A DNA stretch of 23,890 nucleotides from a virus. Its lineage: Duplodnaviria > Heunggongvirae > Uroviricota > Caudoviricetes. Below, piece after piece: positions 2-20,700 of the stretch. The notes under the pieces were generated by a model, which worked only from the letters and a program-made list of their open reading frames with translations, was not told the DNA's origin and did no database searches. The stretch lies in the IMG/VR virus record IMGVR_UViG_2711768193_000009. The stretch is one strand, 5' to 3'. The first letter of the stretch is position 1. Each line of letters opens with the position of its first letter. Position numbers and translations under genes: made by a program.

Positions 2-262
2 TATCCGAAGAAGCACCCGCCGATCGCAGACCGTGTTAACGCAGTGAACCGCATGTTGATGAGTGCCTCGGGCGAAACCCGGTTGTACATCGATCCGAAG
101 TGCAAACACCTCATCGACTCGCTGGAGAAGGTGATCTACAAGCCAGGCTCACGCGATATGGATAAGACTGGCGGCATCGAACACAGTGCGGATGCGTTGG
201 GTTATCCGGTTCATCGTAGGTATCCGGTGAAAAATCGTGTTATTCTTGGTGGATCTAGATAG
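2..262 (+). CDS. terL: Terminase large subunit, C-terminal RNase H-like nuclease end (5'-truncated by window)
   Basis: Frame is open from base 2: YPKKHPPIADRVNAVNRML...RLYIDPKCKHLIDSL...HSADALGY. This is the typical TerL C-terminal pattern (I.DR.N.V, C..LI, D/H..DAL.Y) and it lies directly before the portal gene. Confidence 0.85.
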   Translation, partial: YPKKHPPIADRVNAVNRMLMSASGETRLYIDPKCKHLIDSLEKVIYKPGSRDMDKTGGIEHSADALGYPVHRRYPVKNRVILGGSR

Positions 263-277
263 GTAAGTGCTTACCTA
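260..277. promoter_or_regulatory. 18-bp palindromic operator-like site 1 (perfect): TAGGTAAG-TG-CTTACCTA
   Basis: Perfect 8-bp inverted repeat with 2-bp spacer. It overlaps the terL stop codon and ends 19 bp before the portal ATG. Five related copies occur in the window. Confidence 0.7.
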
Positions 278-295
278 AAAGGAAAGGAAAAGCAA

Positions 296-1870
296 ATGGA
301 ATTGACTGACAAGCAAATCAAAGACCTTGTGGCACGACGCCACCCTGAATATGAGAAGAAAAAAGAACATTGGGACTTCCTCGCCAGCACCTACGCTGGC
401 GGGCGTGCCTGGTTCAACGACAATATCTTCCGTTACTTCAAAGAGGGCGATCAGGAGTTCAAAGAGCGCCTGGAACGCGCTTATCGCTTCAACCACACTC
501 GTGAAGTGGTAAACCTCATCAACAAATACCTCTTCAAAGAGGTCATTCACCGCAACACTGATGAAGCACCGGAGCAGATCCGCAATTTCTGGAAGCGAGC
601 CACGCGCCAGAACACCTCCATCGATGCGTTTATGGCGGCTATCGATCTGCAATCATCCATTTATGGCCGTATCTGGGTTGTCGTGGACAGCACCATGAAC
701 GTCGATGTTGAGTCTGTTGCAGACGAGAAGAAAAATGATGCGCGTGCCTACGCTTACTGGATTTCGCCGCAGCAGCTGCTTGATGTTGCCTGGGACGAAG
801 ACGGCAATATGTTGTGGGCGCTGATTGTTGAAATCGCGCGCGACGACGAAGATCCGTTCACGTCAACCGGGCAGGAATACCAGCGTTACCGTCTGTGGAC
901 GCAAAACGAGTGGCATCTGTTCCGTGAAGAAGTGAAGAAAGGTTCCGGAAATAGCGGTCGTCGTCAGGCCAAAGTCGTTCTGGAGGATAGCGGCCAGCAC
1001 AATCTGGGCGTGGTGCCGGTGTTTCCGGTGGACTGCATTGGCGAAAGCGAGTCTCCGTATTTCAGCCCGTCGTTGATTGACGATATCGCCTATCTTGACC
1101 GCGCCGTGGCCAACTACCTGTCTAACCTTGACGCGATTATTCAGGATCAGACATTCAGCCAGCTGGCGATCCCGGTTCAGTCATTGCTGCCTGGCGATGA
1201 AAACCACACCAAAGTGCTCGAAATGGGTACAAAACGCGTCTTCACCTTCGACTCTGAGAGCGGTAATCAGCCATTCTATCTGTCTCCAGACCCGAAACAG
1301 GCTCAGATGATCATCACCACGATTAAGACGGTCATTAACGAGATCTACCATTCCGTTGGTGTGGCAGGTGAGCGAACCAAGCAGGATAACGCACAGGGCA
1401 TCGATAACTCTTCTGGCGCAGCGAAGATGTACGACTTCCAGCGCGTTAACAGTCTGCTGGTGACAAAAGCAGAGCGCCTCGAAAGGGCAGAACGCCAGAT
1501 GATGCAGCTGGCAGCGAAATGGATGGGTGTCGAACTGGATGAAGACCACTCTCTGATCGCGTACCCGGAAAGTTTCGACATTCGCGGTCTGACTGACGAA
1601 TTTGCCGTTGCTGAGAAACTGTCTCTGCTCCAGGCGCCTGATTCTGTTCGTCGTCATCAGATGGAAATGCTCATCGAGAAGGTCTTCCCGAACATTTCCG
1701 AGGCGATGCAAAAGGAATTTCAAAAAGATCTCTTGAAATTTCCTCCAAAAAATGATCTTAACACCCTTGAAAATAAGTCAGCACTTACTTATGATCGAGA
1801 TACAGCCCAAGAAAGCGGGCAAGATCAACCCCGAGGGAATGGGGACTCATCTACTCAAGAGACCGAGTGA
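296..1870 (+). CDS. Portal protein
   Basis: 524 aa, located between TerL and scaffold/capsid. SPP1-gp6-like portal features (HPEY..., Y.GG, N...VVN, VPV..V, S.I.DIA.L.R...N..S, SG.AK..DF). AAGGA RBS upstream. Confidence 0.9.
   Translation: MELTDKQIKDLVARRHPEYEKKKEHWDFLASTYAGGRAWFNDNIFRYFKEGDQEFKERLERAYRFNHTREVVNLINKYLFKEVIHRNTDEAPEQIRNFWKRATRQNTSIDAFMAAIDLQSSIYGRIWVVVDSTMNVDVESVADEKKNDARAYAYWISPQQLLDVAWDEDGNMLWALIVEIARDDEDPFTSTGQEYQRYRLWTQNEWHLFREEVKKGSGNSGRRQAKVVLEDSGQHNLGVVPVFPVDCIGESESPYFSPSLIDDIAYLDRAVANYLSNLDAIIQDQTFSQLAIPVQSLLPGDENHTKVLEMGTKRVFTFDSESGNQPFYLSPDPKQAQMIITTIKTVINEIYHSVGVAGERTKQDNAQGIDNSSGAAKMYDFQRVNSLLVTKAERLERAERQMMQLAAKWMGVELDEDHSLIAYPESFDIRGLTDEFAVAEKLSLLQAPDSVRRHQMEMLIEKVFPNISEAMQKEFQKDLLKFPPKNDLNTLENKSALTYDRDTAQESGQDQPRGNGDSSTQETE
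1767..1795 (+). promoter_or_regulatory. Predicted sigma70-like promoter inside the portal 3' end (TTGAAA-17 bp-TATGAT)
   Basis: -35 TTGAAA at 1767-1772 and -10 TATGAT at 1790-1795, each 5/6 to consensus, with a 17-bp spacer. The surrounding region is AT-rich (28 G+C in 90 nt over 1711-1800) and lies ~100 bp upstream of the scaffold ATG. Confidence 0.6.
1774..1791. promoter_or_regulatory. Palindromic operator-like site 2: TAAGTCAG-CA-CTTACTTA
   Basis: One mismatch to the consensus. It fills the -35/-10 spacer of the predicted promoter. Confidence 0.65.
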
Positions 1871-1892
1871 TAAGTAACGAAAAGGAATTTCT

Positions 1893-2789
1893 ATGAATCT
1901 GTGGCAAATGCTTATGGCCCGTCGTGGCCTGATGGATGTAGCTGAAGCGCATGAGCGTGGAGGCGCTGGTGGCGGTGCTCCTGCTGGAGACAATGAGCAG
2001 GGCAATCAAGACCCAGGCAAACAGGGCGAGCAAAAAGAGCAACCGAAGGGTGACGACGACGAGTATGCCGGTATGACTCAGGAAGAGTTGCTGGCAGAAC
2101 TGCGTAAGTCCAAGAAAGCCGGTGCTGACCTGCTGAAAGAGAACATGAAGCGCAAGGAGAAAGAGCGCACATTAGCCGATCAGCTGGCTCAGTACGGTGA
2201 TATTGACCCGGCGCGTGCTCGCCAGCTTCTCGAAGCTGAACAAGCCGCAGAAACCGCACGTCGGGAGGCGGAGCAGGCTGAACTGGAACGCCGTGGTGAG
2301 TTCGATGCTGTGAAAAAGCAGATGATCGAAGCGCACCAGGCTGAACTGGCACAGCGCGACGAACGCTACTCCGCTCTGGAGAGCGAGAATGCCGCACTGA
2401 AGGCTCAACTGGTCGAAATGACTGTTGGCGCTTCCTTCAGCGGCTCTGCCTTCCTGCGTGACAAAGTTCTGATGACTCCGGCTAAGGCTCGCGTTATCTA
2501 CGGCTCTCATTTCGAAGTGGGTGAAGACGGTAGTGTTGTGGGCTTTGATAAGCCAGCCGGTCAGAAAGAACGTGCAGTTCTGGTTGACGGTGAAGGCAAA
2601 CCGTTACCGTTCGAATCCGCGATTGAGCGCATTCTGCGTGCAGATCCGGAAGCTGACGCACTGTTGCGCAGCGAAGCCAAGCAGGGTGCTGGTTCCAATA
2701 GCAAACCGACCCACAAAGTAAACCAGCCGAAGAGCAAGTCGACTATGGATAAGTTGACCTCCGGTCTGGGGAAAATCGGACTCAAGTAA
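1893..2789 (+). CDS. Capsid scaffolding protein
   Basis: 298 aa between portal and capsid. Low-complexity N-terminus, long charged coiled-coil (E/K/A/Q-rich), short basic C-terminal helix (KLTSGLGKIGLK). Confidence 0.75.
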   Translation: MNLWQMLMARRGLMDVAEAHERGGAGGGAPAGDNEQGNQDPGKQGEQKEQPKGDDDEYAGMTQEELLAELRKSKKAGADLLKENMKRKEKERTLADQLAQYGDIDPARARQLLEAEQAAETARREAEQAELERRGEFDAVKKQMIEAHQAELAQRDERYSALESENAALKAQLVEMTVGASFSGSAFLRDKVLMTPAKARVIYGSHFEVGEDGSVVGFDKPAGQKERAVLVDGEGKPLPFESAIERILRADPEADALLRSEAKQGAGSNSKPTHKVNQPKSKSTMDKLTSGLGKIGLK

Positions 2790-2815
2790 CATCTTAAATC
2801 ATAGGGAAATGAAAG

Positions 2816-3691
2816 ATGCCATTACTGCGTGATGAAGCTGAAAAGCTGTCTAACAACGAACTTGAGCAGGGTGTGATCGAGACCATCATCGATCGCGATG
2901 ACCTGTTCGCTGTTCTGCCTTTCATGAAGATTAATTCTAAGGCATACCTCTACAACCGCGAAGCTACCCTGAGCGAAGCAACCTTCATCGATGTGAACGA
3001 CACCATCACCGAAGGCGCTGCAACCTTCACCGAACATGTTGCGAAGCTGCGTATCCTGGCAGGCGACGTAGACGTCGACAAATTCCTGGCGACCACTATG
3101 TCCGACACCAACAACCAGCTGGCAATCCAGGTTCGTCAGAAGGTGAAAGGTCTGGCTCGCGCATTCCGCCGCAACCTGATTCTGGGCGACTCCAGCACCA
3201 ACACCAAAGCGTTCGACGGCATTCCGAAGCTGATGCACGACGATCAGAAGATCGACATCGAAGGCGCTTCCATGACCTTCTCCATGTTCGACGAGCTGGT
3301 CGACGCGGTGAAAGATCTGGGCGCAGACTGCATCATGATGCGTTCCGAGCACCTGCGTGCTTATCGCGCTCTGCTGCGTACCGTTAGCCTCGGCCCGTCC
3401 GAAATCATGATGGAAAACTTCGGTCGTCCGATGCTGTGCCACAACGGTGTACCGTTCATCGTGAACGACTTCATCCCGACTGATTCTGGCAAAGCAAGCA
3501 TCTACTGCCTGCACCTGTCCGAAGAGAACGGTGTGACTGGTCTGTATGGCGGTGAAAACGCCGGTATCGTTGTTGAGAACATCGGTACTGTTCAGAACAA
3601 AGACGCAACTCGTACCCGCGTTAAGTGGTACTGCTCTCTGGCGAACAAGCACGACAAGGCTATCGCCGCGCTGACCAACGTAAAAATTTGA
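2816..3691 (+). CDS. Major capsid protein (HK97 fold)
   Basis: 291 aa after the scaffold, with strong high-expression codon bias. HK97-type motifs: L...LPF..I....Y.YNRE, GD.DVD.FL, FDGI.KL, GVPFIVNDFIP. Followed by a terminator. Confidence 0.9.
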   Translation: MPLLRDEAEKLSNNELEQGVIETIIDRDDLFAVLPFMKINSKAYLYNREATLSEATFIDVNDTITEGAATFTEHVAKLRILAGDVDVDKFLATTMSDTNNQLAIQVRQKVKGLARAFRRNLILGDSSTNTKAFDGIPKLMHDDQKIDIEGASMTFSMFDELVDAVKDLGADCIMMRSEHLRAYRALLRTVSLGPSEIMMENFGRPMLCHNGVPFIVNDFIPTDSGKASIYCLHLSEENGVTGLYGGENAGIVVENIGTVQNKDATRTRVKWYCSLANKHDKAIAALTNVKI

Positions 3692-3700
3692 TCAGTATAG

Positions 3701-3718
3701 TAGGTAAGTAATTATCTA
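3701..3718. promoter_or_regulatory. Palindromic operator-like site 3: TAGGTAAG-TA-ATTATCTA
   Basis: Perfect left half, two mismatches in the right half. Intergenic, between the capsid stop and the Ig-protein gene. Confidence 0.6.
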
Positions 3719-3724
3719 CCGTTT

Positions 3725-3752
3725 AAGGGTGGGCTATACGCCCACCCTTTTT
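3725..3752 (+). terminator. Rho-independent terminator-like hairpin after the capsid gene
   Basis: AAGGGTGGGC-TATAC-GCCCACCCTT is a 10-bp perfect stem followed by a T run (3748-3752). Confidence 0.75.
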
Positions 3753-3765
3753 GTAGGAGCGAGAA

Positions 3766-4689
3766 ATGCCAGAACAAAAGATGAAGATCACGGAAGAGGC
3801 GTTTGCGGATTTCACGGGGCATATGTGCCGTGCCGGATTCACCAATTCCATCTCCAACGAGCCTCTGAGCGAGCGCCAGCAGAACCATCTTGCGGCTTGC
3901 TTCCGGGCAATTCCGTTCACTCAGTCTGTCACCATTACACCGGCTGCGCCGTCCGTATTGGTGGGCAAAACCGTTCAACTTAGTGCAGGTATCACTATGA
4001 GTAAAAGCGCAGATTCATTCACCTGGACGTCGGCCAATGACCAGGTCGCCACAGTCAGCGGTACGGGTCTGGTTACTGGCGTGACTCCGGGTAAAGTGAA
4101 GATCACCGCCACCGATAAGCAGACTCAGCTTTCTGCGTCAGTCGAAGTGACCGTTAAGCCTGTCAGCGTGGAGTCCGTTACGGTAACGCCAGACTCTACC
4201 TCTGTTGAGAAGGGGAAATCGGTCAAGTTGCGCGTTGATGTACAACCGTCAAACGCAACCAATAAAAGAGTCACCTGGACTTCCAAAAATAGCGACAAAG
4301 CGACCGTTGACCAGAACGGTAACGTAGCTGGCGTAGCCGTTGGTACGGCAACCATTGAAGTGGTTTCGCAGGATGGCAGCCATAAAGCTACTGCTACGGT
4401 TGAAGTCACTGAGCCTGTCGTTGCTGTTACTGGCGTCTCTGTCGATCCGAGCACCACCAGCGTTGAAGCCAACAAAACGGTACAGCTGACCGCGAACATC
4501 GAACCGGCTGGCGCAACCAATAAGCGCGTAACCTGGGCGTCAAAAAATGCCGAGTTCGCGACGGTTGATAGCGCAACTGGACTTGTGACCGGTGTGGCTG
4601 CAGGTACTGCCACTATCGAAGTCACCACGGAAGACGGTAGCCACAAAGCCACTGCGACCGTTGAAGTGACCGCAGCACCGGCTGCGTAA
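3766..4689 (+). CDS. Ig-like (Big_2) domain virion protein with three Ig domains; probable capsid decoration/accessory protein
   Basis: ~50-aa N-terminal domain followed by three repeats with the Big_2 signature (V.V.P...., V.L.A, VTW.S.N...ATV...G.V.GV..G...I). AGGAG RBS at 3755. Confidence 0.85.
   Translation: MPEQKMKITEEAFADFTGHMCRAGFTNSISNEPLSERQQNHLAACFRAIPFTQSVTITPAAPSVLVGKTVQLSAGITMSKSADSFTWTSANDQVATVSGTGLVTGVTPGKVKITATDKQTQLSASVEVTVKPVSVESVTVTPDSTSVEKGKSVKLRVDVQPSNATNKRVTWTSKNSDKATVDQNGNVAGVAVGTATIEVVSQDGSHKATATVEVTEPVVAVTGVSVDPSTTSVEANKTVQLTANIEPAGATNKRVTWASKNAEFATVDSATGLVTGVAAGTATIEVTTEDGSHKATATVEVTAAPAA
4162..4671 (+). repeat. Tandem duplication of Ig domains 2 (4162-4410) and 3 (4420-4671)
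   Basis: Manual alignment gives about 53/84 identical residues, including ATNKRVTW.SKN and GTATIEV...DGSHKATATVEVT. Confidence 0.85.
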
Positions 4690-4696
4690 CCAACAC

Positions 4697-4717
4697 ATGG
4701 GCGGCGATGCCGCCCAT
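4697..4717. terminator. GC-rich hairpin without a clear U-tract (attenuator or mRNA stabiliser)
   Basis: ATGGGCGGC-GAT-GCCGCCCAT is a perfect 9-bp stem, intergenic. Confidence 0.45.
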
Positions 4718-4732
4718 TAAGTGAGAAGAAGA

Positions 4733-5167
4733 ATGAAACCAGCAAAAATTCGTTTATTGGAGCCTCAATTTTTGGGGTACACGGGCATTCTCTGCGGTAT
4801 CCAGTTTGTCGACGGCATCTCGGTTGCCGAACTGCCATTCATCGATCAGCAGCGGATTTGTGCCTCCATGCGTGCCACTACCGTTGAAGGCAAAAATGTA
4901 TCTCCTTCTGCCGCGTACAGCAGCCGCAATGATTTGACTGCGGACGACATTGTCGAGACGGCGGCCCCGGATATTGTGCCAATGAAACGTGGTACGGCTG
5001 AAGTGGAAGCCAAACCGGTACAACGCTTCACTCGTGAAGAACTGGAGTCGATTGCGGACTGTGAAGGTATTGCGGGTCTGCGTCAGATCGGCAACCAGAT
5101 TGGCGTGAAAGCCAAAGGCATCGTTGAAATGATCGAAGGCATCCTGAAAGCACAGGGCGGTGAGTAA
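4733..5167 (+). CDS. Conserved phage protein, 144 aa; N-terminal domain paralogous to the Ig protein, small helical C-terminal domain
   Basis: ATG at 4733 is preferred over GTG 4721 because it aligns from residue 1 with the upstream protein. The stop overlaps the next ATG (TAATG). Confidence 0.75.
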   Translation: MKPAKIRLLEPQFLGYTGILCGIQFVDGISVAELPFIDQQRICASMRATTVEGKNVSPSAAYSSRNDLTADDIVETAAPDIVPMKRGTAEVEAKPVQRFTREELESIADCEGIAGLRQIGNQIGVKAKGIVEMIEGILKAQGGE

Positions 5168-6000
5168 TGGCGCAGATCGACACGTACCGTAGCGGGGAAG
5201 CAGTTTCCCTGTCGTTTGCATTTAACGTTCTGGATATTGAGTCGGCCACGTATACCGTCAGAGATGGCGCTGGTGCGATCATCGTCGATAGCGAACCTCT
5301 CGATATTACTGAGGGGCAGATGTCCATTCCGGTTGTCGTGTCGGCCGAACACAACCTGCTTTCAGATAAAGAGCGCGATCTGCGACACGTCATTGTCAAA
5401 GCGGTGGCATCCGGGCTGACGCATGAAGAGCGCAAGATGTACGTTCTGCTGAATAGCTTCGAGCTGTCAATTCCAGGCCAGTCATTCGCAACGGTCGCAG
5501 ACGCCCAGATGCAAGCTATCGATATGCTGAACGGCGACACTCTGTTAGCTGATGGCGAAGGGCTGATGCGCAAACGTCTCATTGAGGCCACCAGACGCGT
5601 CAAAACGCTTCCGTTCTCAATCCGCAAAGTCCTGCGTATCGACTTCGACCGGTACGACCGCCCGCAAAACATGCTGAACGTCTATGACATTCCGTGGGGC
5701 GCTGACGGGGCATATCGTCACGATCTGATCGATTGGGAGCAGATGACGCCGGAGAAATTCGACGAGTTCCCGGACTACTTCAAACAGGCATTAATGCTGG
5801 CCGTGGTTAATGAAGCCTGCGAAATCGCTAACGGTAATGACGTAGCGGCAGCCCGCGAGGACGGCATTCTGTCTGAGTCCATTGGTGAAACGACCAATAT
5901 GTACCGCACCGGCAAAGCGGCAAATGTGCATGTGGCTCGCAGTACCTGGCGACTGCTGGTCAGTTACATCAATAACCGCATGATTGTTCGCCGTGCGTAA
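5167..6000 (+). CDS. Putative head-tail adaptor/connector protein
   Basis: 277 aa. Position fits, and the C-terminal part has the adaptor pattern (L..ATR.V..L...; ..KQA....V.NEAC.IA.G; SESIGETT..YR). Translationally coupled to the upstream gene. Confidence 0.6.
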   Translation: MAQIDTYRSGEAVSLSFAFNVLDIESATYTVRDGAGAIIVDSEPLDITEGQMSIPVVVSAEHNLLSDKERDLRHVIVKAVASGLTHEERKMYVLLNSFELSIPGQSFATVADAQMQAIDMLNGDTLLADGEGLMRKRLIEATRRVKTLPFSIRKVLRIDFDRYDRPQNMLNVYDIPWGADGAYRHDLIDWEQMTPEKFDEFPDYFKQALMLAVVNEACEIANGNDVAAAREDGILSESIGETTNMYRTGKAANVHVARSTWRLLVSYINNRMIVRRA

Positions 6001-6906: not shown

Positions 6907-6907
6907 T

Positions 6908-7291
6908 GTGTTTATTGAAGCATTTGCGAGCCTGATGCAGAAGGCGAAGATCGGTACAGTCGGCACTGACATTTTCTGTCACTACATGCCAGCCAATGTG
7001 AAGTCCGGTGTTCTGTTGGTTACTCCCAATACGGGGATCACCATTGACCATGAGTTAAAAGGCTTCTATCACGACTCTTTCACCGTCATCGTGCGTAATG
7101 CGACGATCACAAAGGCGGTGGCGAAAGCCAATAAGATCATGGACATGTTCCCGGTCGAAGAAACCGTGTCGGAGGGCGTTTACTTCCGGTTGGTTCGGCC
7201 AATGTCGATGCCGATTACTTATCCCAAAAACGAAGGTTCGTTGATTGAAGCGGGTATCCCGATTGAATTTGCGGGCTATTTGTTGAATTAA
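6908..7291 (+). CDS. Putative tail terminator protein
   Basis: 127 aa, GTG start, last gene before the tail tube gene. G.D.F...MP and F.V.VR pattern of minor capsid/tail terminator families. Confidence 0.6.
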   Translation: MFIEAFASLMQKAKIGTVGTDIFCHYMPANVKSGVLLVTPNTGITIDHELKGFYHDSFTVIVRNATITKAVAKANKIMDMFPVEETVSEGVYFRLVRPMSMPITYPKNEGSLIEAGIPIEFAGYLLN

Positions 7292-7296
7292 TAAAA

Positions 7297-7314
7297 TAAG
7301 TAAGTATATACTTA
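7297..7314. promoter_or_regulatory. Palindromic operator-like site 4: TAAGTAAG-TA-TATACTTA
   Basis: Perfect left half. Nested in the self-complementary 16-mer GTAAGTATATACTTAC (7300-7315). Upstream of the tail tube gene. Confidence 0.6.
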
Positions 7315-7316: not shown

Positions 7317-7339
7317 ATTGGCACCATGAAGGTGCTGAT
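7317..7339 (+). other. Hairpin downstream of site 4
   Basis: ATTGGCACC-ATGAA-GGTGCTGAT: 9-bp stem with two G-U pairs, followed by TT. Confidence 0.4.
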
Positions 7340-13456: not shown

Positions 13457-13471
13457 TCACAAGGATGTGAG

Positions 13472-13807: not shown

Positions 13808-13821
13808 TTTAACCCACTAGA

Positions 13822-13839
13822 TAAGTAAGTGCTTATTTA
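13822..13839. promoter_or_regulatory. Palindromic operator-like site 5: TAAGTAAG-TG-CTTATTTA
   Basis: One mismatch to consensus, intergenic before the gpL-like gene, overlapping TATTAT hexamers (13838 and 13841). Confidence 0.65.
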
Positions 13840-13850
13840 TTATTATCTAT

Positions 13851-13884
13851 AGGCGCTGACAGGATGTTAGCGCCTCTTTATTTC
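13851..13884 (+). terminator. Terminator-like hairpin downstream of site 5
   Basis: AGGCGCTGACA-GGA-TGTTAGCGCCT: 11-bp stem with one G-U pair, followed by CTTTATTTC. Confidence 0.55.
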
Positions 13885-13896
13885 AAGGAAGAAACG

Positions 13897-14595
13897 ATGG
13901 GTATTAAGGCTGATATTCAGAGCTTGTCGCCCTCCGCGCTCATTGAGCTGTTCGAACTTGATATGTCGAACACTACCTCTGGGGGCAAGCTGTTTTTCCA
14001 CGCTGGTACAAACGAACTGATGGAGCCAGTCGTTTGGCAAGGCGTGTCCTACGAACCGTGGCCAATCAAGGCGTCAGGCTTTGATAAGACTGGTCAGGGT
14101 ACTTTGCCGCGTCCAAAAATCCAGGTCTCCAACTTTGCCGGAACTGTCTCCGCTGAAGTTCAGGCAAACGACGATCTGGTGGGCTGCCGGATCATACGCA
14201 AGATGACGCTGGCGCGTTTTCTCGACGCGGCCAACTTCAAAGACGGGAATCCAACCGCAGATCCAAATCAGCACTTCCCGGATGAGATGTGGTTCATCGA
14301 ACAGAAGACTCTCGAAACCCATGAGGTTGTCGAGTTTGAGCTGTCGAGTGTGTTCGATCTGATGGGTGTGCAACTGCCTTACCGCCAGATCATCAAAAAC
14401 ACCTGCCCGTGGAAATACCGCGGCCCAGAATGCGGCTACACCGGCCCGTACTTTGACAAAAACAACCAGCAAACCACCATGTCAGGCGCGGATTACTGCA
14501 CGAAACGCTACGACTCATGCAACGCACGCCGTAACTACTTTGCCAATGGCGTAATCCACTTTGGCGGGTTCATTGGAGCAACGCGTTATGGGTAA
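13897..14595 (+). CDS. Minor tail protein L (lambda gpL-like, Fe-S-binding tail tip protein)
   Basis: LIELFELD, W.G..Y.PWPI...GF, PRP...VSN, C-terminal four-Cys motif (CPWKYRGPECGY...C...DSC) and FGGF. ATG 13897 has an AAGGA RBS. Confidence 0.92.
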   Translation: MGIKADIQSLSPSALIELFELDMSNTTSGGKLFFHAGTNELMEPVVWQGVSYEPWPIKASGFDKTGQGTLPRPKIQVSNFAGTVSAEVQANDDLVGCRIIRKMTLARFLDAANFKDGNPTADPNQHFPDEMWFIEQKTLETHEVVEFELSSVFDLMGVQLPYRQIIKNTCPWKYRGPECGYTGPYFDKNNQQTTMSGADYCTKRYDSCNARRNYFANGVIHFGGFIGATRYG

Positions 14596-15385
14596 TAGAG
14601 CTTTCCCGGAGCTTGGTTCGGACGTTATGCAGGAAATCTATCTGACAGCCATCAAACGCTACCCGAATGAAGCGTGTGGCTTTCTGGTGCGTACCACTGG
14701 TGACAAATATCGCTTCATGGAAGCCAGGAACGTGTCGGAAAACCCGAAAAACACGTTTGTTATGCACGCTGACGACATTATCGCAGCGGAAGATACAGGA
14801 GACGTGGTTGCCATCTGGCACTCCCACACTGACGAATCAGCTGAAGCGTCAGACGCCGACCGCGCCGGATGCGAGGCAACGGAAGTTCCGTGGCTAATTC
14901 TGGCTGTTCGCAAGAACGTCGAGGGCGATGCGCCATTTCACTTCAGTGAGATGAATGTGATCACCCCAGACGGCTTTGAGATGCCTTATCTGGGACGACC
15001 CTATGTGTTTGGTGTCTTCGACTGCTGGATGCTGTGCCGCGACTATCTGAAGCGTGAGTTCAACGTCGAGCTGAATCCGAACCCGCACCTGCATATTCCA
15101 TCGTGGTACACGGGCGATACCGACATTCTCGATCAGAACTACCGCAATGAAGGACTTGTTCGTCTGGCGCCGGGGACGGAACCCCAGCGTGGTGACGTCT
15201 TCTTCATTCAGTACGGAAAGATGCCTGACCACTGCGCGGTGTACATAGGAGATGGAATGATTCTGCACCACCAGATCGACCGTCTGAGCTGTCGCGCTTA
15301 TTACGGTGGCATGTACCAGAAACACACGACGCACCACCTGCGTCACAGAGACTTACTCAAGGGAGATGAAACGTGTCTGAGTTAG
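14588..15385 (+). CDS. Tail tip assembly protein K (JAB/MPN + NlpC/P60)
   Basis: JAB motif EACG...WHSHT....AS.AD and NlpC/P60 residues DCW...HCAVY.G...ILHH. Start overlaps the gpL stop. Confidence 0.92.
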   Translation: MGNRAFPELGSDVMQEIYLTAIKRYPNEACGFLVRTTGDKYRFMEARNVSENPKNTFVMHADDIIAAEDTGDVVAIWHSHTDESAEASDADRAGCEATEVPWLILAVRKNVEGDAPFHFSEMNVITPDGFEMPYLGRPYVFGVFDCWMLCRDYLKREFNVELNPNPHLHIPSWYTGDTDILDQNYRNEGLVRLAPGTEPQRGDVFFIQYGKMPDHCAVYIGDGMILHHQIDRLSCRAYYGGMYQKHTTHHLRHRDLLKGDETCLS

Positions 15386-15963
15386 TTCATGTGCAACTTG
15401 GTGGCCCGATGGCAAGGCATTTTGGCCGCCACTGGCATTTAAAAGTGCGCAACACCAAACAGGCGTTGGATTTGGTCGAAGCCAATCGTCCGGGCTTAAA
15501 AGCCTGGATGAAGCGCAACATGAAGACCTACGACAAGTATCACATCCAGATCACCAATAAGCAGGGGCATAAGTGGTCGGTTGATGAGAGCGAATTTCAA
15601 ATGATGGGACAGTCCGACAACATCGCGAAAATCCGCATCACGCCGGTTCCCCGAGGTAGCGGTGGCTCTGCATTCGGCTGGTTTCAAACAGTAGTAGGGG
15701 CTGCGTTGATGGTCATATCTGCTTTTATTATGCCTGCTCTAGTCCCTCTTGGCTTGTCGCTGATGATGGGCGGTATTTCTCAGCTAATTTCGCCCCAGGC
15801 AACCAATGACAGCGTCAGACAGGCAGATAATTCGAACTCGTTTTACTTTGATGGGCCACAAAACACTACAAACCAGGGCAACCCCGTTCAGCTCATTTAT
15901 GGTGAGGAAATTCTGGTCGGCTCTCAGGTCGTGAGTTCTTCGATCACCATCGACCAGCTTTAG
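15373..15963 (+). CDS. Tail assembly protein I (lambda gpI-like)
   Basis: Ubiquitin-like N-terminus (V.L.G...R.FGR), P...GSGG followed by a hydrophobic Gly-rich stretch, and C-terminal QGNPV.LIYGE..VGS. Confidence 0.9.
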   Translation: MSELVHVQLGGPMARHFGRHWHLKVRNTKQALDLVEANRPGLKAWMKRNMKTYDKYHIQITNKQGHKWSVDESEFQMMGQSDNIAKIRITPVPRGSGGSAFGWFQTVVGAALMVISAFIMPALVPLGLSLMMGGISQLISPQATNDSVRQADNSNSFYFDGPQNTTNQGNPVQLIYGEEILVGSQVVSSSITIDQL

Positions 15964-15984
15964 TAATAAGGGAATTTTTTGAAC

Positions 15985-18900
15985 ATGGAACAGTTCAAGA
16001 AGAAGAGACTGCCTCTCCTGATTGCAGGTGCAGGCGGAAAGAAAAGCAGTGGCTCCAGCCGCACGCCGGTTGAAGCTGACGATACCGTAAACTCGCGTGC
16101 TATGGCGTCCATCCTCGACCTGCTCGGGGAGGGTGTCATTGGCGGGCTGGTGGATGGCGCAAAGTCGATCTTCGTTGATGACCTGCCAATCCTGAACGAA
16201 GACGGATCTCCAAACTTTAGCGGTATCACCTGGGACTTCCGCGATGGTTCACAAGACCAGACGCCGATGTCCGGGTTCGATTTCGTTGAAACGCCGAAGT
16301 CAGTCAACATCCAGCTGAAAAGAATGCACGACGTTACGATTGCCATCGATAACGATGAGGCAGACCGTGTCCGCGTCATTCTGAAGTTCCCGTCTCTGCG
16401 TAGCATTGACAAAAAGACCGGTGATACCAACGGTACGACCGTGAAGTACAAATTCCAGATTGCCAATGGCGATAATGCCTTCAAGGACGCCATCGCAGAA
16501 GGGGAGAGCACTTCCGAAATTACGCTGACGGCTAAAAAAACTGGCGTTTACTATCGCAGCTACGAACTCAAGCTGCCTAAACCCGGTCGTGCCTACAAGA
16601 TTCGAGTCATTCGCCTGACTGAAGACAGTAATTCTCAGTACATCTTCAACGATACCTGGGTGGACTCTGTCGGTGAAATTGTAGATACCCCGATGAACTA
16701 TCCCAACTCCGTGCTGGTCGGCCTGAAGGTTAACTCTGAGCAGTTTGGTAGTTCTATGCCCTCTCGCTATTACCTTGTTCGCGGTCTGAAGATCAGAGTG
16801 CCGGCCAACTATGATGAAAACACCAACACCTACGTTGGCGTGTGGGATGGCACCTTTAAGCTACTTTCGTCTTCAAACCCTGCCTGGATTCTTTTCGACG
16901 TGCTTACCAACGCTCGTTATGGGCTGGGACAGTTCGTGTCTGAAGCTATGATCGACCTTGGGCAGTTCTATCAGATTGGTCGCTACTGCGACGAAGAAGT
17001 AGACGATGGCTTCGGAGGTAAAGAGAAGCGCTTCGCTATCAACACCCAGATCACCAGCCGTCAGGATGCGTACCGACTGATTCAGGATATCGCTGGCGCC
17101 TTCCGCGGTATGGTCTTCTGGGCTGGCGGCATGGTTAACGTCATGCAGGATAGTCCGTCAGATCCGGTCATGATGTTCACCAACGCGAACGTCAAAGACG
17201 GCATGTTCAGCTACAAGGGATCTGCGCGTAAAGACCGTCCGTCAGTTGCTCTTGTGACCTACAACAACAAGGAAGACGGCTACAAGCAGAACATCGAGTA
17301 CGTCGAAGACCAGGAGGCGATGCGTCGTTATGGCGAGCGCAAAACCGAAGTGGTTGCGTTCGGCTGTACCAGCCGTGGCCAGGCGCATCGTGTCGGTCTG
17401 TGGCTGCTGTATACCGCACGCATGGAGTCCGACGTTATCAGCTTTACGGCAGGGCTGGATGCTTCCTTCCTGATGCCGGGCGAAACGGTGCTGATTCAGA
17501 ACAAATACCGTGCTGGTAAACGCAACTCTGGCCGCATTGTGGCGTTCACAAAGAACAGCATCACTCTCGACGCACCGGTTACGCTGAATAAGGCTGGTAG
17601 CTACATCCGGATCTTGAATCAGGAAGGAGAAATCGTTGAGCGCGATATTCTTGAGACCGGGGAAGACATTACCAAAGTGACCTTCTCCAAAGCGCTCAAT
17701 TCCGGTGATATGCCGGTTATGAATGGCGTCTGGACGATTACCGAGCCAGATCTGGAACCAATGCGCGTGCGTGTTATCAACGTTGCCCAGGGCGAGGCTC
17801 AGGGGACGTTTGACGTTACCGTTGTCCAGAATAACGCATCGAAGTACGAAGCCATCGACAACGGCGCGACGCTGATCCCCGAGAACAACACCGTTCTCGA
17901 CCCGACTTATTCGAAGCCGACCAACCTGCAGGTGACGGAAGGGACGTATATCTCCAGTCCGGGTAACCTCTCAATCAAGCTCGTTGCCACCTGGGAAGGT
18001 AAGTCTGCGGAATATTGGATCAGCTGGCGTCGTTCCGATGAGAACAACGTCTCTAACTGGCAGTCCGCACGCGTTACCGAAGAGCAGTTCGAGATCCTCA
18101 ATATTGCCGAGAATGGTCAGTACGACATTCAGCTCTATGCGGTTTCGTTCAGCGGCAAGAAGACGGATATCATCAGCACCGTTTATCAGGTGAAAGGTAC
18201 GATGACGCCGCCAGGCTCTCCTACCTCTCTGACGGCCGTGGGTGACTACCGCAACGTGATTCTGAATTGGGTCAACCCGGACTCAATCGACCTCGATCAC
18301 ATCAACGTGTACGCCTCCCAGACCAACGATCTGGAAACGGCAAAGTTGATTGCAGAGGCTGCCAGCACCACGTTCACCCATGCCGGTCTTGGGGATAGCG
18401 AGACCTGGTACTATTGGGTTCGCGCGGTGAACAAGCGTGGCATGTTAAGCCCGCCGAACTCCAATCTGGGTACGGAAGCGATGACGCGAGACGTCCTCTC
18501 GTTCCTTACCGGGAAGATCACTTCTTCTGAGCTGGGGCAGGAGCTGCTGGAGGAAATCGACTCAAAAGCCTCTCAGGATGCGGTCGACGCCATCAACAAA
18601 CAGATGGAAGAAAGCCTGAAAGAGCTTGATCAGTCCGTTGCCGATCTGGACAGCAAACTGGAAGACACCAGCGGTCGGCTTGAACAGGCCCAGAACGACC
18701 TCAAAAATGAAGTCTCTGGCACGCTGGACAAGGTCAACGACGCGCTGCAACAGGTTGGGGACTCTAATGCGGCTCTGGTTGAGTTGCAGGAGACCGTTTC
18801 CGAGCAGGGCAAAGCCGTTGCAGGTGCTGTGGAAGCGGCACACGCTGCGCTCGACAATGCCTCCGCGCTGATTGCTGAAGAGCGTGAAGCCCGTGTCGAA

Positions 18901-20673
18901 GGCGATAAGGCAAATGCCAAACAGATTGAGGCAATGAAATCCTCAGTCGATGACAGCGTTGCCGCCGTCGAAGAGATGAAAAAGACCGTTGCCGAAGTCG
19001 AACGCGCCAGCGCGGAAGTATCGACCAATATCGAGGCTCTGGCCAAAACCAATATTGACCTCGCTCTGCGTCAGGATGAAGACCAGCACAAGCAAATGGT
19101 CAATAACGCGAAGATCGCCACCACTCAGAAGACGTTTGCCGACGATATGTCTGCAATGGCCTCAAAAGTGGAAGAGATCCGCGCAGAAATTGGTGAGGAC
19201 ATCCGGGCATCGATTCTGGAAGAGACAACGGCTCGCGTAGAGGCTGATAAGGCGATCGCAACACAAATCACCAAGTTGGAAGCCCAGATCAATGATGATA
19301 TTTCTGCGGCCATTGTTTCTGAGCAGGAGGCCAGAGCCACTGCGGATGAATCCCTGTCCAGGCAGATTAAGTCACTGCAGGCGAAGGTAGAAGGTGACAT
19401 TAGTGCGGCTCTTACCGAAGAGCAGATCGCCCGAGCTTCGGGGGATGAGGCATTATCCAAACAGATTACCAGCCTCAAGGCCCAGACGGGTGAGGATATT
19501 AAGGCGGCAGTTGCCAGTGAAACGAAAGCGCGTACTGACGCAGATAGCGCACTGGCAACTCAGATCAGCACGTTAAAGGCTCAGACTGCGCAGGACATCA
19601 AAGCAGCGGTTGCTACTGAGACTAAAGCTCGTACCGATGCCGATTCGGCGCTGGCCGGGCAGATCACAAGCCTGAAAGCCCAGACTGGCAAGGATATTAA
19701 TGCAGCAGTTACGTCCGAGGCGAACGCCAGGGCAAATGCTGATGGGGCGTTGGGATCACGTATCGATACGCTAAAAGCCTCTGTTGACGGTAACTCTGCA
19801 ACGATTAAACAACAGGCGACAGCTATTGCGGACACCAATAAAAAAGTCTCTACAGCCTGGACGCTTAAGATGGAGACATCGACAAGCGGTGGGCAGAAGT
19901 ATGTTGCCGGCATTGCGTTGGGGATCGACAGCACTGGTCTGTCTCAATTCCTTGTTCAAGCCGACCGTTTTGGATTGGTGAACTCAGTGAATGGAAAGGT
20001 TACAACGCCTTTCGTCATTGAAAACGGTGTGGCATATATGAGCGGAGCTTGGATACAAAATGGCACTATCGATAATGCAAAAATAGGGCAGTTTATTCAG
20101 TCTAACGACTTTCAAAGCGGTGTCAGAGGATGGAATATAAACAAAAATGGCTCTTCTGAATTTCAGAACATCAAAGCCAGAGGGGAGATTATTGCAACAA
20201 CGGGAAGGATGAGTAATGTCGTAATTGATGAGACATGTACTGTTAAAAAGCTATTCGCTGAAAACATCTATGGAGACATTATTACAGCATCATCCAATTT
20301 GACCGATAAGGTTTGGGGAAATACAACTGGCACTAGCTCGGGTACGCGTTACCCAATTGCAACCATACATGGTGCACCTTTCGAAAGAGTTTTTTTATTT
20401 TTAGGGACAACTGCTGCGCATACCCTTTGGCGACAGAACGTCACAATTAGATGTGATGAGTCGATCGTTTTCCAATATGACACAGGAAACGATGGTTCAA
20501 GTGGCGATTCTACAAAAAAATGGAATAACTTGTTATTAAGGATACCGGCTTCGTCGTATGGCGCGACCCAAAATCTGACAGTTCAGTTTCCAAACAGGGG
20601 CGATAGAGGATATCTCCAGTTCACCGGAATTCTAATGCTATATAAAATATCTGGTTCGGTGACAATTCATTGA
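15985..20673 (+). CDS. Central tail fibre / host specificity protein J (lambda gpJ-like)
   Basis: ~1562 aa. GAGG start, SNPAWIL.D.LTN.RYGLG, YCDE.V.DG.GG.E.RF, FN3 domains (YYWVRAVN), coiled-coil repeats, YVAGI.LG...SQFL..ADRF, GWNINKNG..EF. ATG 15985 chosen over TTG 15979. Confidence 0.93.
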   Translation: MEQFKKKRLPLLIAGAGGKKSSGSSRTPVEADDTVNSRAMASILDLLGEGVIGGLVDGAKSIFVDDLPILNEDGSPNFSGITWDFRDGSQDQTPMSGFDFVETPKSVNIQLKRMHDVTIAIDNDEADRVRVILKFPSLRSIDKKTGDTNGTTVKYKFQIANGDNAFKDAIAEGESTSEITLTAKKTGVYYRSYELKLPKPGRAYKIRVIRLTEDSNSQYIFNDTWVDSVGEIVDTPMNYPNSVLVGLKVNSEQFGSSMPSRYYLVRGLKIRVPANYDENTNTYVGVWDGTFKLLSSSNPAWILFDVLTNARYGLGQFVSEAMIDLGQFYQIGRYCDEEVDDGFGGKEKRFAINTQITSRQDAYRLIQDIAGAFRGMVFWAGGMVNVMQDSPSDPVMMFTNANVKDGMFSYKGSARKDRPSVALVTYNNKEDGYKQNIEYVEDQEAMRRYGERKTEVVAFGCTSRGQAHRVGLWLLYTARMESDVISFTAGLDASFLMPGETVLIQNKYRAGKRNSGRIVAFTKNSITLDAPVTLNKAGSYIRILNQEGEIVERDILETGEDITKVTFSKALNSGDMPVMNGVWTITEPDLEPMRVRVINVAQGEAQGTFDVTVVQNNASKYEAIDNGATLIPENNTVLDPTYSKPTNLQVTEGTYISSPGNLSIKLVATWEGKSAEYWISWRRSDENNVSNWQSARVTEEQFEILNIAENGQYDIQLYAVSFSGKKTDIISTVYQVKGTMTPPGSPTSLTAVGDYRNVILNWVNPDSIDLDHINVYASQTNDLETAKLIAEAASTTFTHAGLGDSETWYYWVRAVNKRGMLSPPNSNLGTEAMTRDVLSFLTGKITSSELGQELLEEIDSKASQDAVDAINKQMEESLKELDQSVADLDSKLEDTSGRLEQAQNDLKNEVSGTLDKVNDALQQVGDSNAALVELQETVSEQGKAVAGAVEAAHAALDNASALIAEEREARVEGDKANAKQIEAMKSSVDDSVAAVEEMKKTVAEVERASAEVSTNIEALAKTNIDLALRQDEDQHKQMVNNAKIATTQKTFADDMSAMASKVEEIRAEIGEDIRASILEETTARVEADKAIATQITKLEAQINDDISAAIVSEQEARATADESLSRQIKSLQAKVEGDISAALTEEQIARASGDEALSKQITSLKAQTGEDIKAAVASETKARTDADSALATQISTLKAQTAQDIKAAVATETKARTDADSALAGQITSLKAQTGKDINAAVTSEANARANADGALGSRIDTLKASVDGNSATIKQQATAIADTNKKVSTAWTLKMETSTSGGQKYVAGIALGIDSTGLSQFLVQADRFGLVNSVNGKVTTPFVIENGVAYMSGAWIQNGTIDNAKIGQFIQSNDFQSGVRGWNINKNGSSEFQNIKARGEIIATTGRMSNVVIDETCTVKKLFAENIYGDIITASSNLTDKVWGNTTGTSSGTRYPIATIHGAPFERVFLFLGTTAAHTLWRQNVTIRCDESIVFQYDTGNDGSSGDSTKKWNNLLLRIPASSYGATQNLTVQFPNRGDRGYLQFTGILMLYKISGSVTIH
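19201..19794 (+). repeat. Six tandem 99-bp (33-aa) coiled-coil repeats in gpJ
   Basis: Units start at 19201, 19300, 19399, 19498, 19597 and 19696. Consensus I.AAV..E..AR..AD.ALA.QI..LKAQ...D. Confidence 0.9.
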
Positions 20674-20682
20674 TTACAATGG

Positions 20683-20700
20683 CAGGTATGTACTTACTTA
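20683..20700. promoter_or_regulatory. Palindromic operator-like site 6: CAGGTATG-TA-CTTACTTA
   Basis: Perfect right half, two mismatches in the left half. Intergenic, between gpJ and the side fibre gene. Confidence 0.6.

What the first reader, a model, noticed from the sequence alone, without database searches (positions are those of the whole stretch)
260..20700. Six copies of an 18-bp palindrome mark the morphogenesis gene blocks: candidate phage-plasmid late-gene operator/promoter system
Seen: 260 TAGGTAAG-TG-CTTACCTA; 1774 TAAGTCAG-CA-CTTACTTA; 3701 TAGGTAAG-TA-ATTATCTA; 7297 TAAGTAAG-TA-TATACTTA; 13822 TAAGTAAG-TG-CTTATTTA; 20683 CAGGTATG-TA-CTTACTTA. Consensus is TARGTAAG-YR-CTTACYTA. 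Each copy has at least one perfect half and at most two mismatches, and the spacer is always a flexible pyrimidine-purine step. Five copies are intergenic and the sixth precedes the scaffold-capsid block, so they sit before portal, scaffold/capsid, Ig protein, tail tube, gpL-K-I-J and the side fibre. In four of six, the last TA starts a -10-like TAnnnT hexamer (TATGAT, TACCGT, TACCAT, TATTAT). Established: phage P1 late promoters use a short inverted repeat (AAGTTACTT, about -22) bound by the activator Lpa, and the core here (AAGT-r-CTT) loosely resembles it. Inference: a dimeric phage-encoded regulator, either a late activator or a plasmid-state repressor, controls all virion genes through this site. 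I do not know of a description of this motif for this phage-plasmid group.
Basis: partly seen in the sequence, partly recalled or inferred. Interest (0 to 1): 0.8.

Follow-up and report, generated by a model that had tools for sequence, protein, structure and literature searches.

The report
Genome-wide operator palindrome of SSU5-type phage-plasmids
The six palindromes are real, but they belong to a set of about 25 copies of a 20-base protein-binding site found between most lytic genes of SSU5-type phage-plasmids, most likely the shared docking site of one element-encoded repressor rather than a signal for late (virion) genes only.

Summary
The six 18-bp palindromes are real: 6 matches against 0.01 expected. 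Five lie in the ~2.5% of the window that is non-coding.

They are not specific to morphogenesis genes. The window is an SSU5-type phage-plasmid (98.7% identical to SSU5). In SSU5, Cyrano and pJN2-26 the same site, really a 20-mer RTARGTAAGT|ACTTACYTAY, occurs 22-26 times. It lies almost only between genes, ahead of replication, nucleotide, lysis and virion genes alike. In a 4.8-Mb carrier genome all 16 copies are on the plasmid contig.

A Rhizobium relative carrying ParA and RepC genes has 32 copies of a variant at the same junctions. A Stenotrophomonas relative without ParA has none.

Mismatches show no G-U bias, so it is read as DNA. Sigma-70-like promoters overlap 10 of 24 sites in the gene direction, at varying registers. 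One near-consensus promoter is silent in a Cyrano lysogen and about 40-fold induced in macrophages (published RNA-seq).

Best reading (about 0.6): a dispersed operator of an element-encoded global repressor. The binder is not identified. Membership of P1 Lpa-type late promoters fails. The core fits the SlmA site rule, fully in only 1 of 6 sites.

This scan found the motif before on other SSU5-like DNA. I found no paper describing it.

The parts
260..277 (.). Palindrome copy 1 (TAGGTAAGTGCTTACCTA). It overlaps the terminase stop codon and lies 18 nt before the portal start. It is the only window copy whose 12-bp core fully fits the SlmA rule GTRAGYRCTYAC.
   Evidence: No sigma-70-like promoter overlaps it (best 6 of 12).
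1767..1795 (+). Palindrome copy 2 (1774-1791), embedded in a near-consensus promoter TTGAAA-17-TATGAT inside the 3' end of the portal gene, 102 bp before the scaffold gene.
   Evidence: (10 of 12 match). Nearly identical (17 of 18 motif columns) in SSU5, Cyrano and pJN2-26.
3701..3718 (.). Palindrome copy 3, 9 nt after the capsid stop codon.
3725..3754 (+). GC-rich hairpin plus T-run (intrinsic-terminator-like) directly after copy 3, before the Ig-protein gene.
   Evidence: -19.6 kcal/mol. RNA falls 3.0 log2 across the orthologous Cyrano junction.
7283..7314 (+). Palindrome copy 4 (7297-7314), overlapped by promoter-like TTGAAT-18-TATACT; the -10 hexamer lies inside the palindrome. It sits before the tail-tube gene.
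   Evidence: RNA rises 2.5 log2 across the orthologous Cyrano junction in macrophage-grown cells.
7317..7339 (+). Hairpin after copy 4, kept in relatives through compensatory changes.
   Evidence: -11.1 kcal/mol.
13818..13846 (+). Palindrome copy 5 (13822-13839), overlapped by promoter-like TAGATA-17-TATTAT, between gpM and gpL.
13851..13885 (+). Hairpin plus T-rich tail after copy 5. The conserved gpL start with its Shine-Dalgarno sequence is at 13897, not at the longest-ORF start 13864.
   Evidence: -17.4 kcal/mol. RNA falls 1.9 log2 across the orthologous Cyrano junction.
20683..20700 (.). Palindrome copy 6, between gpJ and the side-fibre gene. Similarity to SSU5 resumes at base 20686, inside this copy, after a non-homologous gpJ C-terminal module.
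20704..20717 (+). Short GC hairpin after copy 6.
   Evidence: -8.3 kcal/mol.

Best explanation
The palindrome is the operator of one global regulator, most likely a repressor encoded by the phage-plasmid itself. The full site is about 20 bp (RTARGTAAGT|ACTTACYTAY), built of GTAA-like tetramers in inverted halves. That architecture suits a dimer or a dimer of dimers. About 25 copies sit in the short gaps between lytic transcription units, and many lie on top of the core promoter (spacer or -10). In the plasmid-prophage state the bound protein would keep replication, lysis and virion genes silent. On induction it would be removed and the units fire together. Shown here: the sites, their genome-wide intergenic placement, their element-specificity, their conservation and co-evolution in relatives, their overlap with promoter-like sequences, and the silence in a lysogen and inducibility of the downstream genes. 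Inferred: that a protein binds the site, that it represses, and which protein it is.
For: 1. The six window sites are far above chance.
2. The motif is genome-wide. SSU5 has 26 hits at <=3 mismatches, 22 of them in the 11.6% of the genome that is intergenic, all ahead of + strand genes of every functional class. Cyrano has 22 and pJN2-26 has 24, against 0-1 for the reversed-pattern control.
3. It is element-specific. In a 4.8-Mb carrier genome all 16 hits (<=2 mismatches) are on the plasmid contig and none on the rest.
4. It is read as DNA, not RNA. Departures from symmetry are G-T 11, A-C 14 and other 20. As RNA hairpins the copies fold at only -1.6 to -6.3 kcal/mol.
5. There is deep conservation with co-evolution. 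Rhizobium phage RHph_N1_10 (capsid 50% identical, with ParA and RepC) has 32 copies of GTMARTMAATATTKAYTKAC. It shares the alternating T/A skeleton but has an AATATT centre, and the copies sit at the same junctions: terminase|portal, after the capsid, before the tail tube, helicase|parB. The Stenotrophomonas relative BUCTxx99, which shares the structural and replication genes but lacks ParA, has no such motif.
6. Promoter overlap has no fixed register. A sigma-70-like arrangement of >=9 of 12 overlaps 10 of 24 sites in the gene direction, 3 of 24 in the mirrored direction, and 2.2% of random positions. The -10 hexamer falls anywhere from -3 to +42 relative to the palindrome. That pattern is expected of an operator, not of a positioned activator site.
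7. Published gene-level RNA-seq of the Cyrano lysogen (PMC9928086, S1 table) shows 18 of 20 genes directly after a site at background in LB. At Cyrano 57447 the order is terminator, TTGAAA, 17 bp holding the palindrome, TATCAT. That near-consensus promoter is at the detection floor in LB and about 40-fold up in macrophages at 6 h. Jumps of >=2.4 log2 occur at 4 of 18 site junctions against 3 of 80 junctions without a site.
Against: No binding protein is identified.
- The best positional candidate is the 92-aa protein next to the helicase (SSU5_123 / CYRAN_117), 12x above background in the lysogen, with a sequence that looks ribbon-helix-helix-like. It has no Pfam, PDB or PHROG support for that fold. 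The monomer model is poor (pLDDT 68). Its presumed DNA-facing residues vary among relatives that keep the same motif.
- Silence in the lysogen is equally expected for activator-dependent promoters.
- Only about 40% of sites overlap a recognisable promoter, and site 260 has none.
- Across all Cyrano junctions, sites give no net rise in RNA (mean -0.09 log2, p = 0.56).
- Several sites lie between a stop codon and a terminator-like hairpin, an odd place for a promoter operator. Those copies may act as roadblocks or have another role.
- The absence of the motif from a lytic relative rests on a single genome.
Confidence: 0.6

Rival explanations
1. Activator-dependent phage promoter element, working like P1 late promoters. 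A phage-made activator binds the palindrome in place of a -35 contact and switches on all lytic units.
For: Most sites lack a -35 hexamer and have an A-rich upstream flank. A TAYCAT hexamer follows the palindrome in 10 of 24 SSU5 sites. The half-site core AAGT/ACTT is the same as in P1 Lpa boxes. Downstream genes are silent in the lysogen and some units start at sites when induced.
Against: There is no Lpa homologue (E = 0.44). The mirrored strand has the -10-like hexamer more often (17 of 24). The recognisable promoters overlap the palindrome at different registers. Two near-consensus promoters (TTGAAA-17-TATGAT and TTGAAA-17-TATCAT) should not need an activator, yet they are silent in the lysogen. 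RNA falls across 2 of the 6 orthologous window junctions. A lytic relative with the same gene set has no motif.
Confidence: 0.15
2. Binding sites for the host nucleoid-occlusion protein SlmA (TetR family). They would tie the plasmid-prophage to cell division or use SlmA as a host-supplied silencer. This could coexist with a phage-encoded binder.
For: The consensus core GTAAGYRCTTAC fits the published rule for SlmA sites exactly: G, T, A, G required at positions 1, 2, 4, 5; any purine at 3; any pyrimidine at 6 (Tonthat 2011, PMC3020112). SSU5 has 17 cores within one mismatch of that rule, against 3.3 in shuffles. No TetR-type protein is encoded by the elements themselves.
Against: Only 1 of 6 window sites and 3 of 24 SSU5 sites meet the rule in both halves. 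The outer positions (T2, A3, T18, A19 of the 20-mer) are as invariant as the core, which a 12-bp SlmA site does not explain. The 18-mer never occurs on the 4.7-Mb host chromosome, where real SlmA sites lie. The Rhizobium relative keeps the system with an AATATT centre that breaks the rule, giving 0 hits within one mismatch; from my own knowledge its host is not known to have SlmA. Chromosomal SlmA sites are reported to avoid promoters.
Confidence: 0.1
3. Sites for a ParB/KorB-like protein of the element (the two ParB-like genes after the helicase), acting as dispersed clamp-loading or silencing sites as KorB does on RK2. Alternatively, conserved linker sequences at which modules are exchanged by recombination.
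For: Two ParB-like genes are conserved and lie directly beside a conserved copy of the site (SSU5 99799, Cyrano 105108, Rhizobium phage 16629). ParB-family proteins read palindromes of 13-16 bp (the 14-bp Noc site is quoted; the ParB and KorB sites are from my own knowledge). Similarity between the window and SSU5 resumes inside copy 6, after a swapped gpJ module.
Against: The ParB-like pair is also present in the motif-less Stenotrophomonas phage. There is one mosaic junction only. Recombination linkers would not explain the promoter overlap or the co-evolving centre.
Confidence: 0.08
4. An RNA-level element: a hairpin in the polycistronic mRNA serving processing, stability or translational control.
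For: All copies are transcribed in the sense of the genes. Many sit just after stop codons and next to other hairpins. The element encodes an FljA-family protein (PF03614, E = 3e-81). Its relative FljA acts on fliC mRNA (from my own knowledge).
Against: There is no excess of G-U over A-C among non-Watson-Crick pairs (11 against 14). Predicted stabilities are weak (-1.6 to -6.3 kcal/mol), and the 2-nt centre cannot form a loop. The FljA-like gene is absent from the Rhizobium relative, which has the motif.
Confidence: 0.04

Closest known systems
Dispersed operators of the C1 repressor of phage-plasmid P1
   Same: A plasmid-prophage in which one repressor controls many scattered lytic transcription units, through about 17-bp sites placed on or beside promoters all round the genome. 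The P1 record lists more than a dozen such operators.
   Different: C1 operators are asymmetric and cover early functions plus lpa, while late genes are controlled indirectly. Here the site is a 20-bp palindrome and also precedes virion and lysis genes. No C1-like protein has been linked to it, and the binder is unknown.
Mycobacteriophage L5 repressor gp71 with operators and 'stoperators' (from my own knowledge; not checked in a paper here)
   Same: About 25-30 copies of one short site in the short intergenic gaps of both early and late regions. Some lie on promoters and others do not, with the latter thought to block elongation in the prophage.
   Different: The L5 sites are 13 bp, asymmetric and orientation-dependent. 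The SSU5 site is palindromic. Roadblock action has not been tested here.
Phage P1 late promoters activated by Lpa (gp10)
   Same: A short inverted repeat with AAGT/ACTT half-sites just upstream of a -10 hexamer, with no -35. There are several copies per genome in a phage-plasmid (11 promoters according to PMC10695390).
   Different: The P1 box is 9 bp (AAGTNACTT) with a fixed 4-nt gap to the -10 hexamer in four of the five promoters read (9 nt at LPhot), at late genes only. Here the core is 8 bp inside a 20-bp palindrome, the register is variable, all gene classes are covered, and there is no Lpa homologue.
SlmA-binding sites (SBS) of enterobacterial chromosomes
   Same: The central 12 bp of the consensus satisfies the published SBS rule GTRAGY|RCTYAC.
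   Different: Most individual copies break the rule in one half. The outer 4 bp on each side are conserved as well. The sites sit in promoter regions and only on the element. The Rhizobium variant is not an SBS.
KorB operators (OB) on IncP plasmid RK2 (from my own knowledge)
   Same: A dozen or more copies of one palindrome dispersed over a plasmid, at varying distances from promoters, giving global silencing by one plasmid protein that is also tied to partition.
   Different: OB is a 13-bp GC-containing palindrome read by a ParB-family protein. Here the ParB-like genes do not track the presence of the motif.

Membership tests
P1 Lpa-dependent late promoters | 9-bp inverted repeat AAGTNACTT centred near -22 | tested here: not met
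   P1 boxes read from the annotated record are AAGTGACTT, AAGTTACTT, ATGTGACTT and AAATGACTA. Here the core is AAGTACTT with no central base, inside an 18-20 bp palindrome.
P1 Lpa-dependent late promoters | Fixed short gap (4 nt) between the box and a -10 hexamer, on the gene strand | tested here: not met
   A -10-like hexamer sits at the fixed position in 10 of 24 sites on the forward strand and 17 of 24 on the mirrored strand. The best promoters overlap the palindrome at registers from -3 to +42.
P1 Lpa-dependent late promoters | Restricted to late (morphogenesis, lysis, packaging) operons | tested here: not met
   Sites precede helicase, ligase, cobT/S-like, SSB, nrdA, thyX, methylase and parB-like genes as well.
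P1 Lpa-dependent late promoters | Element encodes an Lpa (gp10) homologue | tested here: not met
   tblastn of P1 Lpa against SSU5 gives a best E of 0.44.
P1 Lpa-dependent late promoters | Requirement for host SspA | not testable with these tools
   Needs genetics or in vitro transcription.
Dispersed prophage-repressor operators (P1 C1 type, L5 gp71 type) | Many copies of one site spread over the element, at or near promoters of lytic genes | tested here: met
   There are 22-26 copies per genome, with 22 of 26 intergenic in SSU5. Promoter-like overlap is found at 10 of 24 sites.
Dispersed prophage-repressor operators (P1 C1 type, L5 gp71 type) | Site specific to the element, not used by the host genome | tested here: met
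   All 16 hits are on the plasmid contig of a 4.8-Mb genome.
Dispersed prophage-repressor operators (P1 C1 type, L5 gp71 type) | Genes downstream of the sites are silent in the lysogen and inducible | tested here: met
   Cyrano S1 table of PMC9928086: 18 of 20 genes at background in LB. The units after sites 57447 and 59400 rise 11-13-fold above their upstream neighbours in macrophages at 6 h. This result is also compatible with an activator.
Dispersed prophage-repressor operators (P1 C1 type, L5 gp71 type) | A cognate repressor encoded by the element that binds the site | tested here: inconclusive
   Candidates were examined (SSU5_123 RHH-like, 116, 046, 130, 121). None has evidence of binding.
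SlmA-binding sites | 12-bp palindrome obeying GTRAGY|RCTYAC | tested here: inconclusive
   The consensus obeys the rule. Individually, 1 of 6 window sites and 3 of 24 SSU5 sites obey it in full, and 17 cores are within one mismatch against 3.3 by chance.
SlmA-binding sites | Bound by host SlmA in vivo or in vitro | not testable with these tools
   Needs EMSA or ChIP.
RNA hairpin element | Pairing kept through G-U and compensatory changes on the transcribed strand, with a stable fold | tested here: not met
   G-T 11 against A-C 14. Fold energies are -1.6 to -6.3 kcal/mol.
ParB/KorB-type dispersed sites | Presence of the site tracks presence of the ParB-family reader | tested here: not met
   ParB-like genes are present in BUCTxx99, which lacks the motif. 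This rests on one genome only.

The most novel reading that the evidence does not exclude
The enterobacterial version of the operator has been tuned (centre AATATT changed to AGTACT) so that it doubles as a binding site for the host division inhibitor SlmA. A 100-kb plasmid-prophage with about 20 such sites would then load SlmA. That could couple its own silencing, or its position in the cell, to nucleoid occlusion and cell division, with a phage-encoded protein competing for the same DNA.
Probability: 0.1. Interest if true: 0.8.

Novelty: new member of a known kind. Interest (0 to 1): 0.45.

Why it matters
SSU5-type phage-plasmids are widespread in enterobacteria. They include Salmonella phage SSU5 and the E. 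coli and Klebsiella elements matched here (one named for KPC, one for OXA-48). From my own knowledge they also include pHCM2 of S. Typhi and relatives that carry ESBL genes. I found no description of their lysis-lysogeny control. A single 20-bp site present about 25 times, conserved as far as Rhizobium phages, gives a direct handle on the master regulator. It can serve as bait for a DNA pull-down and as a ready-made list of its regulon. It also predicts which promoters fire on induction. For annotation, it marks transcription-unit boundaries and corrects some start codons. It is a known type of circuit, so the value is practical rather than conceptual, unless the SlmA link proves real.

Tried and rejected
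- The window's own genome is not held. I used SSU5, Cyrano, pJN2-26 and genome G001 instead.
- RNA-seq runs were available only as assembled contigs. They cannot show starts or levels. In one study a contig begins at 297 with a depth step from 10 to 95, just after site 260. Contig breaks in the other studies (about 6.2-6.8 kb) do not coincide with sites. I do not use this as evidence.
- Test for a gene-strand -10 element: no asymmetry in favour of the gene strand.
- Test for a systematic rise in RNA across site junctions in Cyrano: none overall (mean -0.09 log2, p = 0.56). Only the tails differ.
- TetR_N domain (SlmA-like) in five phage genomes: none found.
- P1 Lpa homologue: none found.
- FljA-family protein SSU5_121 (PF03614) as the binder: rejected. 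It is absent from the Rhizobium relative and, to my eye, looks like an Sm/Hfq-type RNA binder.
- CYRAN_45 HTH repressor and CYRAN_43: absent from SSU5, so not the general binder.
- SSU5_123 family: Pfam, PHROGs and a PDB profile search gave no informative hit. The AlphaFold monomer has pLDDT 68 with the N-terminus unresolved, so the ribbon-helix-helix call rests on sequence pattern only.
- No small RHH gene was found in the unannotated gaps around repA.
- The 2026 bioRxiv preprint on phage-plasmid heteroresistance (many mentions of 'promoter') and the P1 genome paper could not be opened.


Full report
**Observation.** Shuffles give a mean of 0.01 matches. The gene map from the ORF list, and from the 98.7% identical SSU5 record, places the sites as follows:
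- at the terminase|portal junction;
- in the last 100 bp of the portal gene;
- at capsid|Ig protein;
- at tail completion|tail tube;
- at gpM|gpL;
- at gpJ|side fibre.

Five of the six lie in gaps that add up to about 600 bp of 23.9 kb. The description is therefore correct and far from chance.

**The motif is not a morphogenesis signal.** I assembled the whole SSU5 record and scanned it.
- There are 26 hits at <=3 mismatches. Twenty-two are in intergenic DNA, which is 11.6% of the genome.
- All precede + strand genes, spread from 2 kb to 100 kb. These include helicase, ligase, the cobT/cobS-like pair, SSB, membrane proteins, sbcD, nrdA, thyX, methylases, holin and the parB-like operon, besides the virion genes.
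- Cyrano (about 81% nucleotide identity) has 22 copies and Klebsiella pJN2-26 has 24. The reversed-pattern control gives 0-1.
- In genome G001, a 4.8-Mb assembly that carries a like plasmid, all 16 hits are on the plasmid contig.
- Aligned copies show that the site is really about 20 bp, RTARGTAAGT|ACTTACYTAY. The outer T/A positions are as invariant as the core.

**DNA or RNA.** If the palindrome worked as an mRNA hairpin, departures from symmetry should favour G-U on the transcribed strand. They do not: G-T 11, A-C 14, other 20. The copies fold weakly as RNA, at -1.6 to -6.3 kcal/mol. The GC-rich hairpins that follow four of the six window copies fold at -8 to -20 kcal/mol, and in the tail-tube junction alignment compensatory changes preserve the pairing in relatives. 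I conclude that the palindrome is read as double-stranded DNA.

**Relatives.** The capsid protein finds 110-kb siphophages of Rhizobium and Stenotrophomonas with the same gene order.
- Rhizobium phage RHph_N1_10 has ParA and RepC genes, so I take it to be a phage-plasmid as well. It carries 32 copies of GTMARTMAATATTKAYTKAC in a 60% G+C genome.
- Position by position, this variant shares the alternating T-A-T-A-T|A-T-A-T-A skeleton of the SSU5 site but has AATATT instead of AGTACT at the centre.
- Its copies sit at the same junctions: terminase|portal, scaffold|capsid, after the capsid, before the tail tube, helicase|parB. They are often followed by a GC hairpin as well.
- The Stenotrophomonas phage BUCTxx99 shares the structural and replication genes but lacks ParA. 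It has very short gaps and no such motif.

This pattern of co-evolution with the element, and presence in the two partition-proficient lineages, points to a reader encoded by the element and to a role linked to the prophage state. It rests on one lytic genome.

**Promoter, operator or activator site.**
- Most copies have no -35 hexamer, and the upstream flank is A-rich.
- Scoring whole sigma-70 arrangements does give a directional signal: 10 of 24 sites overlap a match of >=9 of 12 on the gene strand, against 3 of 24 mirrored and 2.2% of random positions.
- The -10 hexamer falls at many different registers relative to the palindrome.
- In the window, 1767-1795 (TTGAAA-17-TATGAT), 7283-7312 and 13818-13846 are such arrangements.

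A variable register is what one expects of a repressor operator laid over promoters. It is not what one expects of an activator site such as the P1 Lpa box. That box, read from the annotated P1 record, is AAGTNACTT followed by 4 nt (9 nt at LPhot) and the -10 hexamer.

**Expression data.** The run-finding tool offered only assembled contigs, which are uninformative. A published gene-level table for the Cyrano lysogen of E. coli LF82 (PMC9928086, S1 table) is more useful.
- In LB, 18 of the 20 genes directly downstream of a site are at background.
- None of the genes the authors list as expressed in the lysogen follows a site.
- In bacteria inside macrophages at 6 h, some units that begin at sites rise sharply above their upstream neighbours: tail tube +2.5 log2, gene 34 +2.4, gene 56 +3.6, gene 60 +3.65. 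That is 4 of 18 site junctions, against 3 of 80 other junctions.
- RNA falls across capsid|Ig protein (-3.0) and gpM|gpL (-1.9), where terminator-like hairpins follow the site.
- Overall there is no net rise.
- At Cyrano 57447 the order is terminator, TTGAAA, a 17-bp spacer filled by the palindrome, TATCAT. This near-consensus promoter is at the detection floor in LB and about 40-fold induced.

A promoter that good does not need an activator. Its silence in the lysogen argues for repression through the palindrome.

**Who binds.**
- No Lpa homologue and no TetR-type protein is encoded.
- The FljA-family protein SSU5_121 (PF03614, E = 3e-81) is absent from the Rhizobium relative and looks RNA-binding.
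- Cyrano's annotated HTH repressor is not in SSU5.
- The 92-aa protein next to the helicase (SSU5_123 / CYRAN_117) is transcribed away from a conserved copy of the site and is 12-fold above background in the lysogen. Its sequence pattern looks ribbon-helix-helix-like to me, and ribbon-helix-helix proteins bind roughly 20-bp palindromes as dimers of dimers. But no library supports the fold, the monomer model is poor, and its presumed DNA-facing residues vary among relatives with the same motif.
- I leave the binder open.

**SlmA.** Earlier notes of this scan pointed to SlmA. I checked the paper (PMC3020112). The rule GTRAGY|RCTYAC is met by the consensus core. It is met in full by only 1 of 6 window sites and 3 of 24 SSU5 sites. 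The rule does not explain the conserved outer bases. The 18-mer is absent from the host chromosome, and the Rhizobium variant breaks the rule. A secondary role for SlmA in enterobacterial hosts is not excluded.

**Verdict.** It is wrong in scope (not late-specific) and in its proposed family (not Lpa-type). The thing itself is a genome-wide operator of SSU5-type phage-plasmids. This is a known kind of circuit, apparently undescribed for this family in the literature I could search. This scan has already met it repeatedly on other SSU5-like DNA.

Noticed in passing
window 3725-3754, 7317-7339, 13851-13885, 20704-20717: Four of the six palindromes are followed within 3-12 nt by a GC-rich hairpin, two of them with a T-run. 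The pairing is kept through compensatory changes in Cyrano and pJN2-26. The same 'palindrome then hairpin' order recurs in the Rhizobium phage (for example 26809, 29087, 39896 of its genome). Why the operator lies between the stop codon and a terminator-like hairpin is unexplained.
   Followed up: partly
window 20051-20686: Similarity to SSU5 is lost in the C-terminal part of gpJ and resumes at base 20686, inside palindrome copy 6. One mosaic (host-range module) junction therefore coincides with the motif.
   Followed up: partly
window 13864-13897: The longest ORF for gpL starts at 13864, inside the hairpin loop. The start conserved in four genomes, with a Shine-Dalgarno sequence (AAGGAAG), is the ATG at 13897.
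   Followed up: yes
SSU5 58075 / Cyrano 59400 (outside the window): Here the -10 hexamer (TAGTAT) lies inside the palindrome and the ATG of the next gene is 2 nt after it. That suggests a leaderless or near-leaderless mRNA. This unit is induced about 80-fold in macrophages.
   Followed up: partly
SSU5 96897-97409, minus strand (outside the window): A full-length member of the FljA family ('repressor of phase-1 flagellin', PF03614, E = 3e-81) is conserved in SSU5, Cyrano and pJN2-26. It may let the plasmid-prophage act on host flagellin expression.
   Followed up: partly
Rhizobium phage RHph_N1_10, L007 4577, 8906, 9943, 10922: A second palindrome family (TTAGCGAAATCGCTAA-like) clusters around the par and minus-strand gene region. 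It is distinct from the dispersed motif and may be the partition or immunity site.
   Followed up: no
window 297: In one RNA-seq study an assembled contig begins at 297, right after copy 1, with contig depth stepping from about 10 to 95. Contigs cannot prove a transcript start.
   Followed up: no
window 15659-15744, 18588-18696, 19196-19888: Contigs from other samples replace these stretches of gpI and gpJ with unrelated sequence of similar length. The tail-tip genes are therefore patchwork among close relatives.
   Followed up: no
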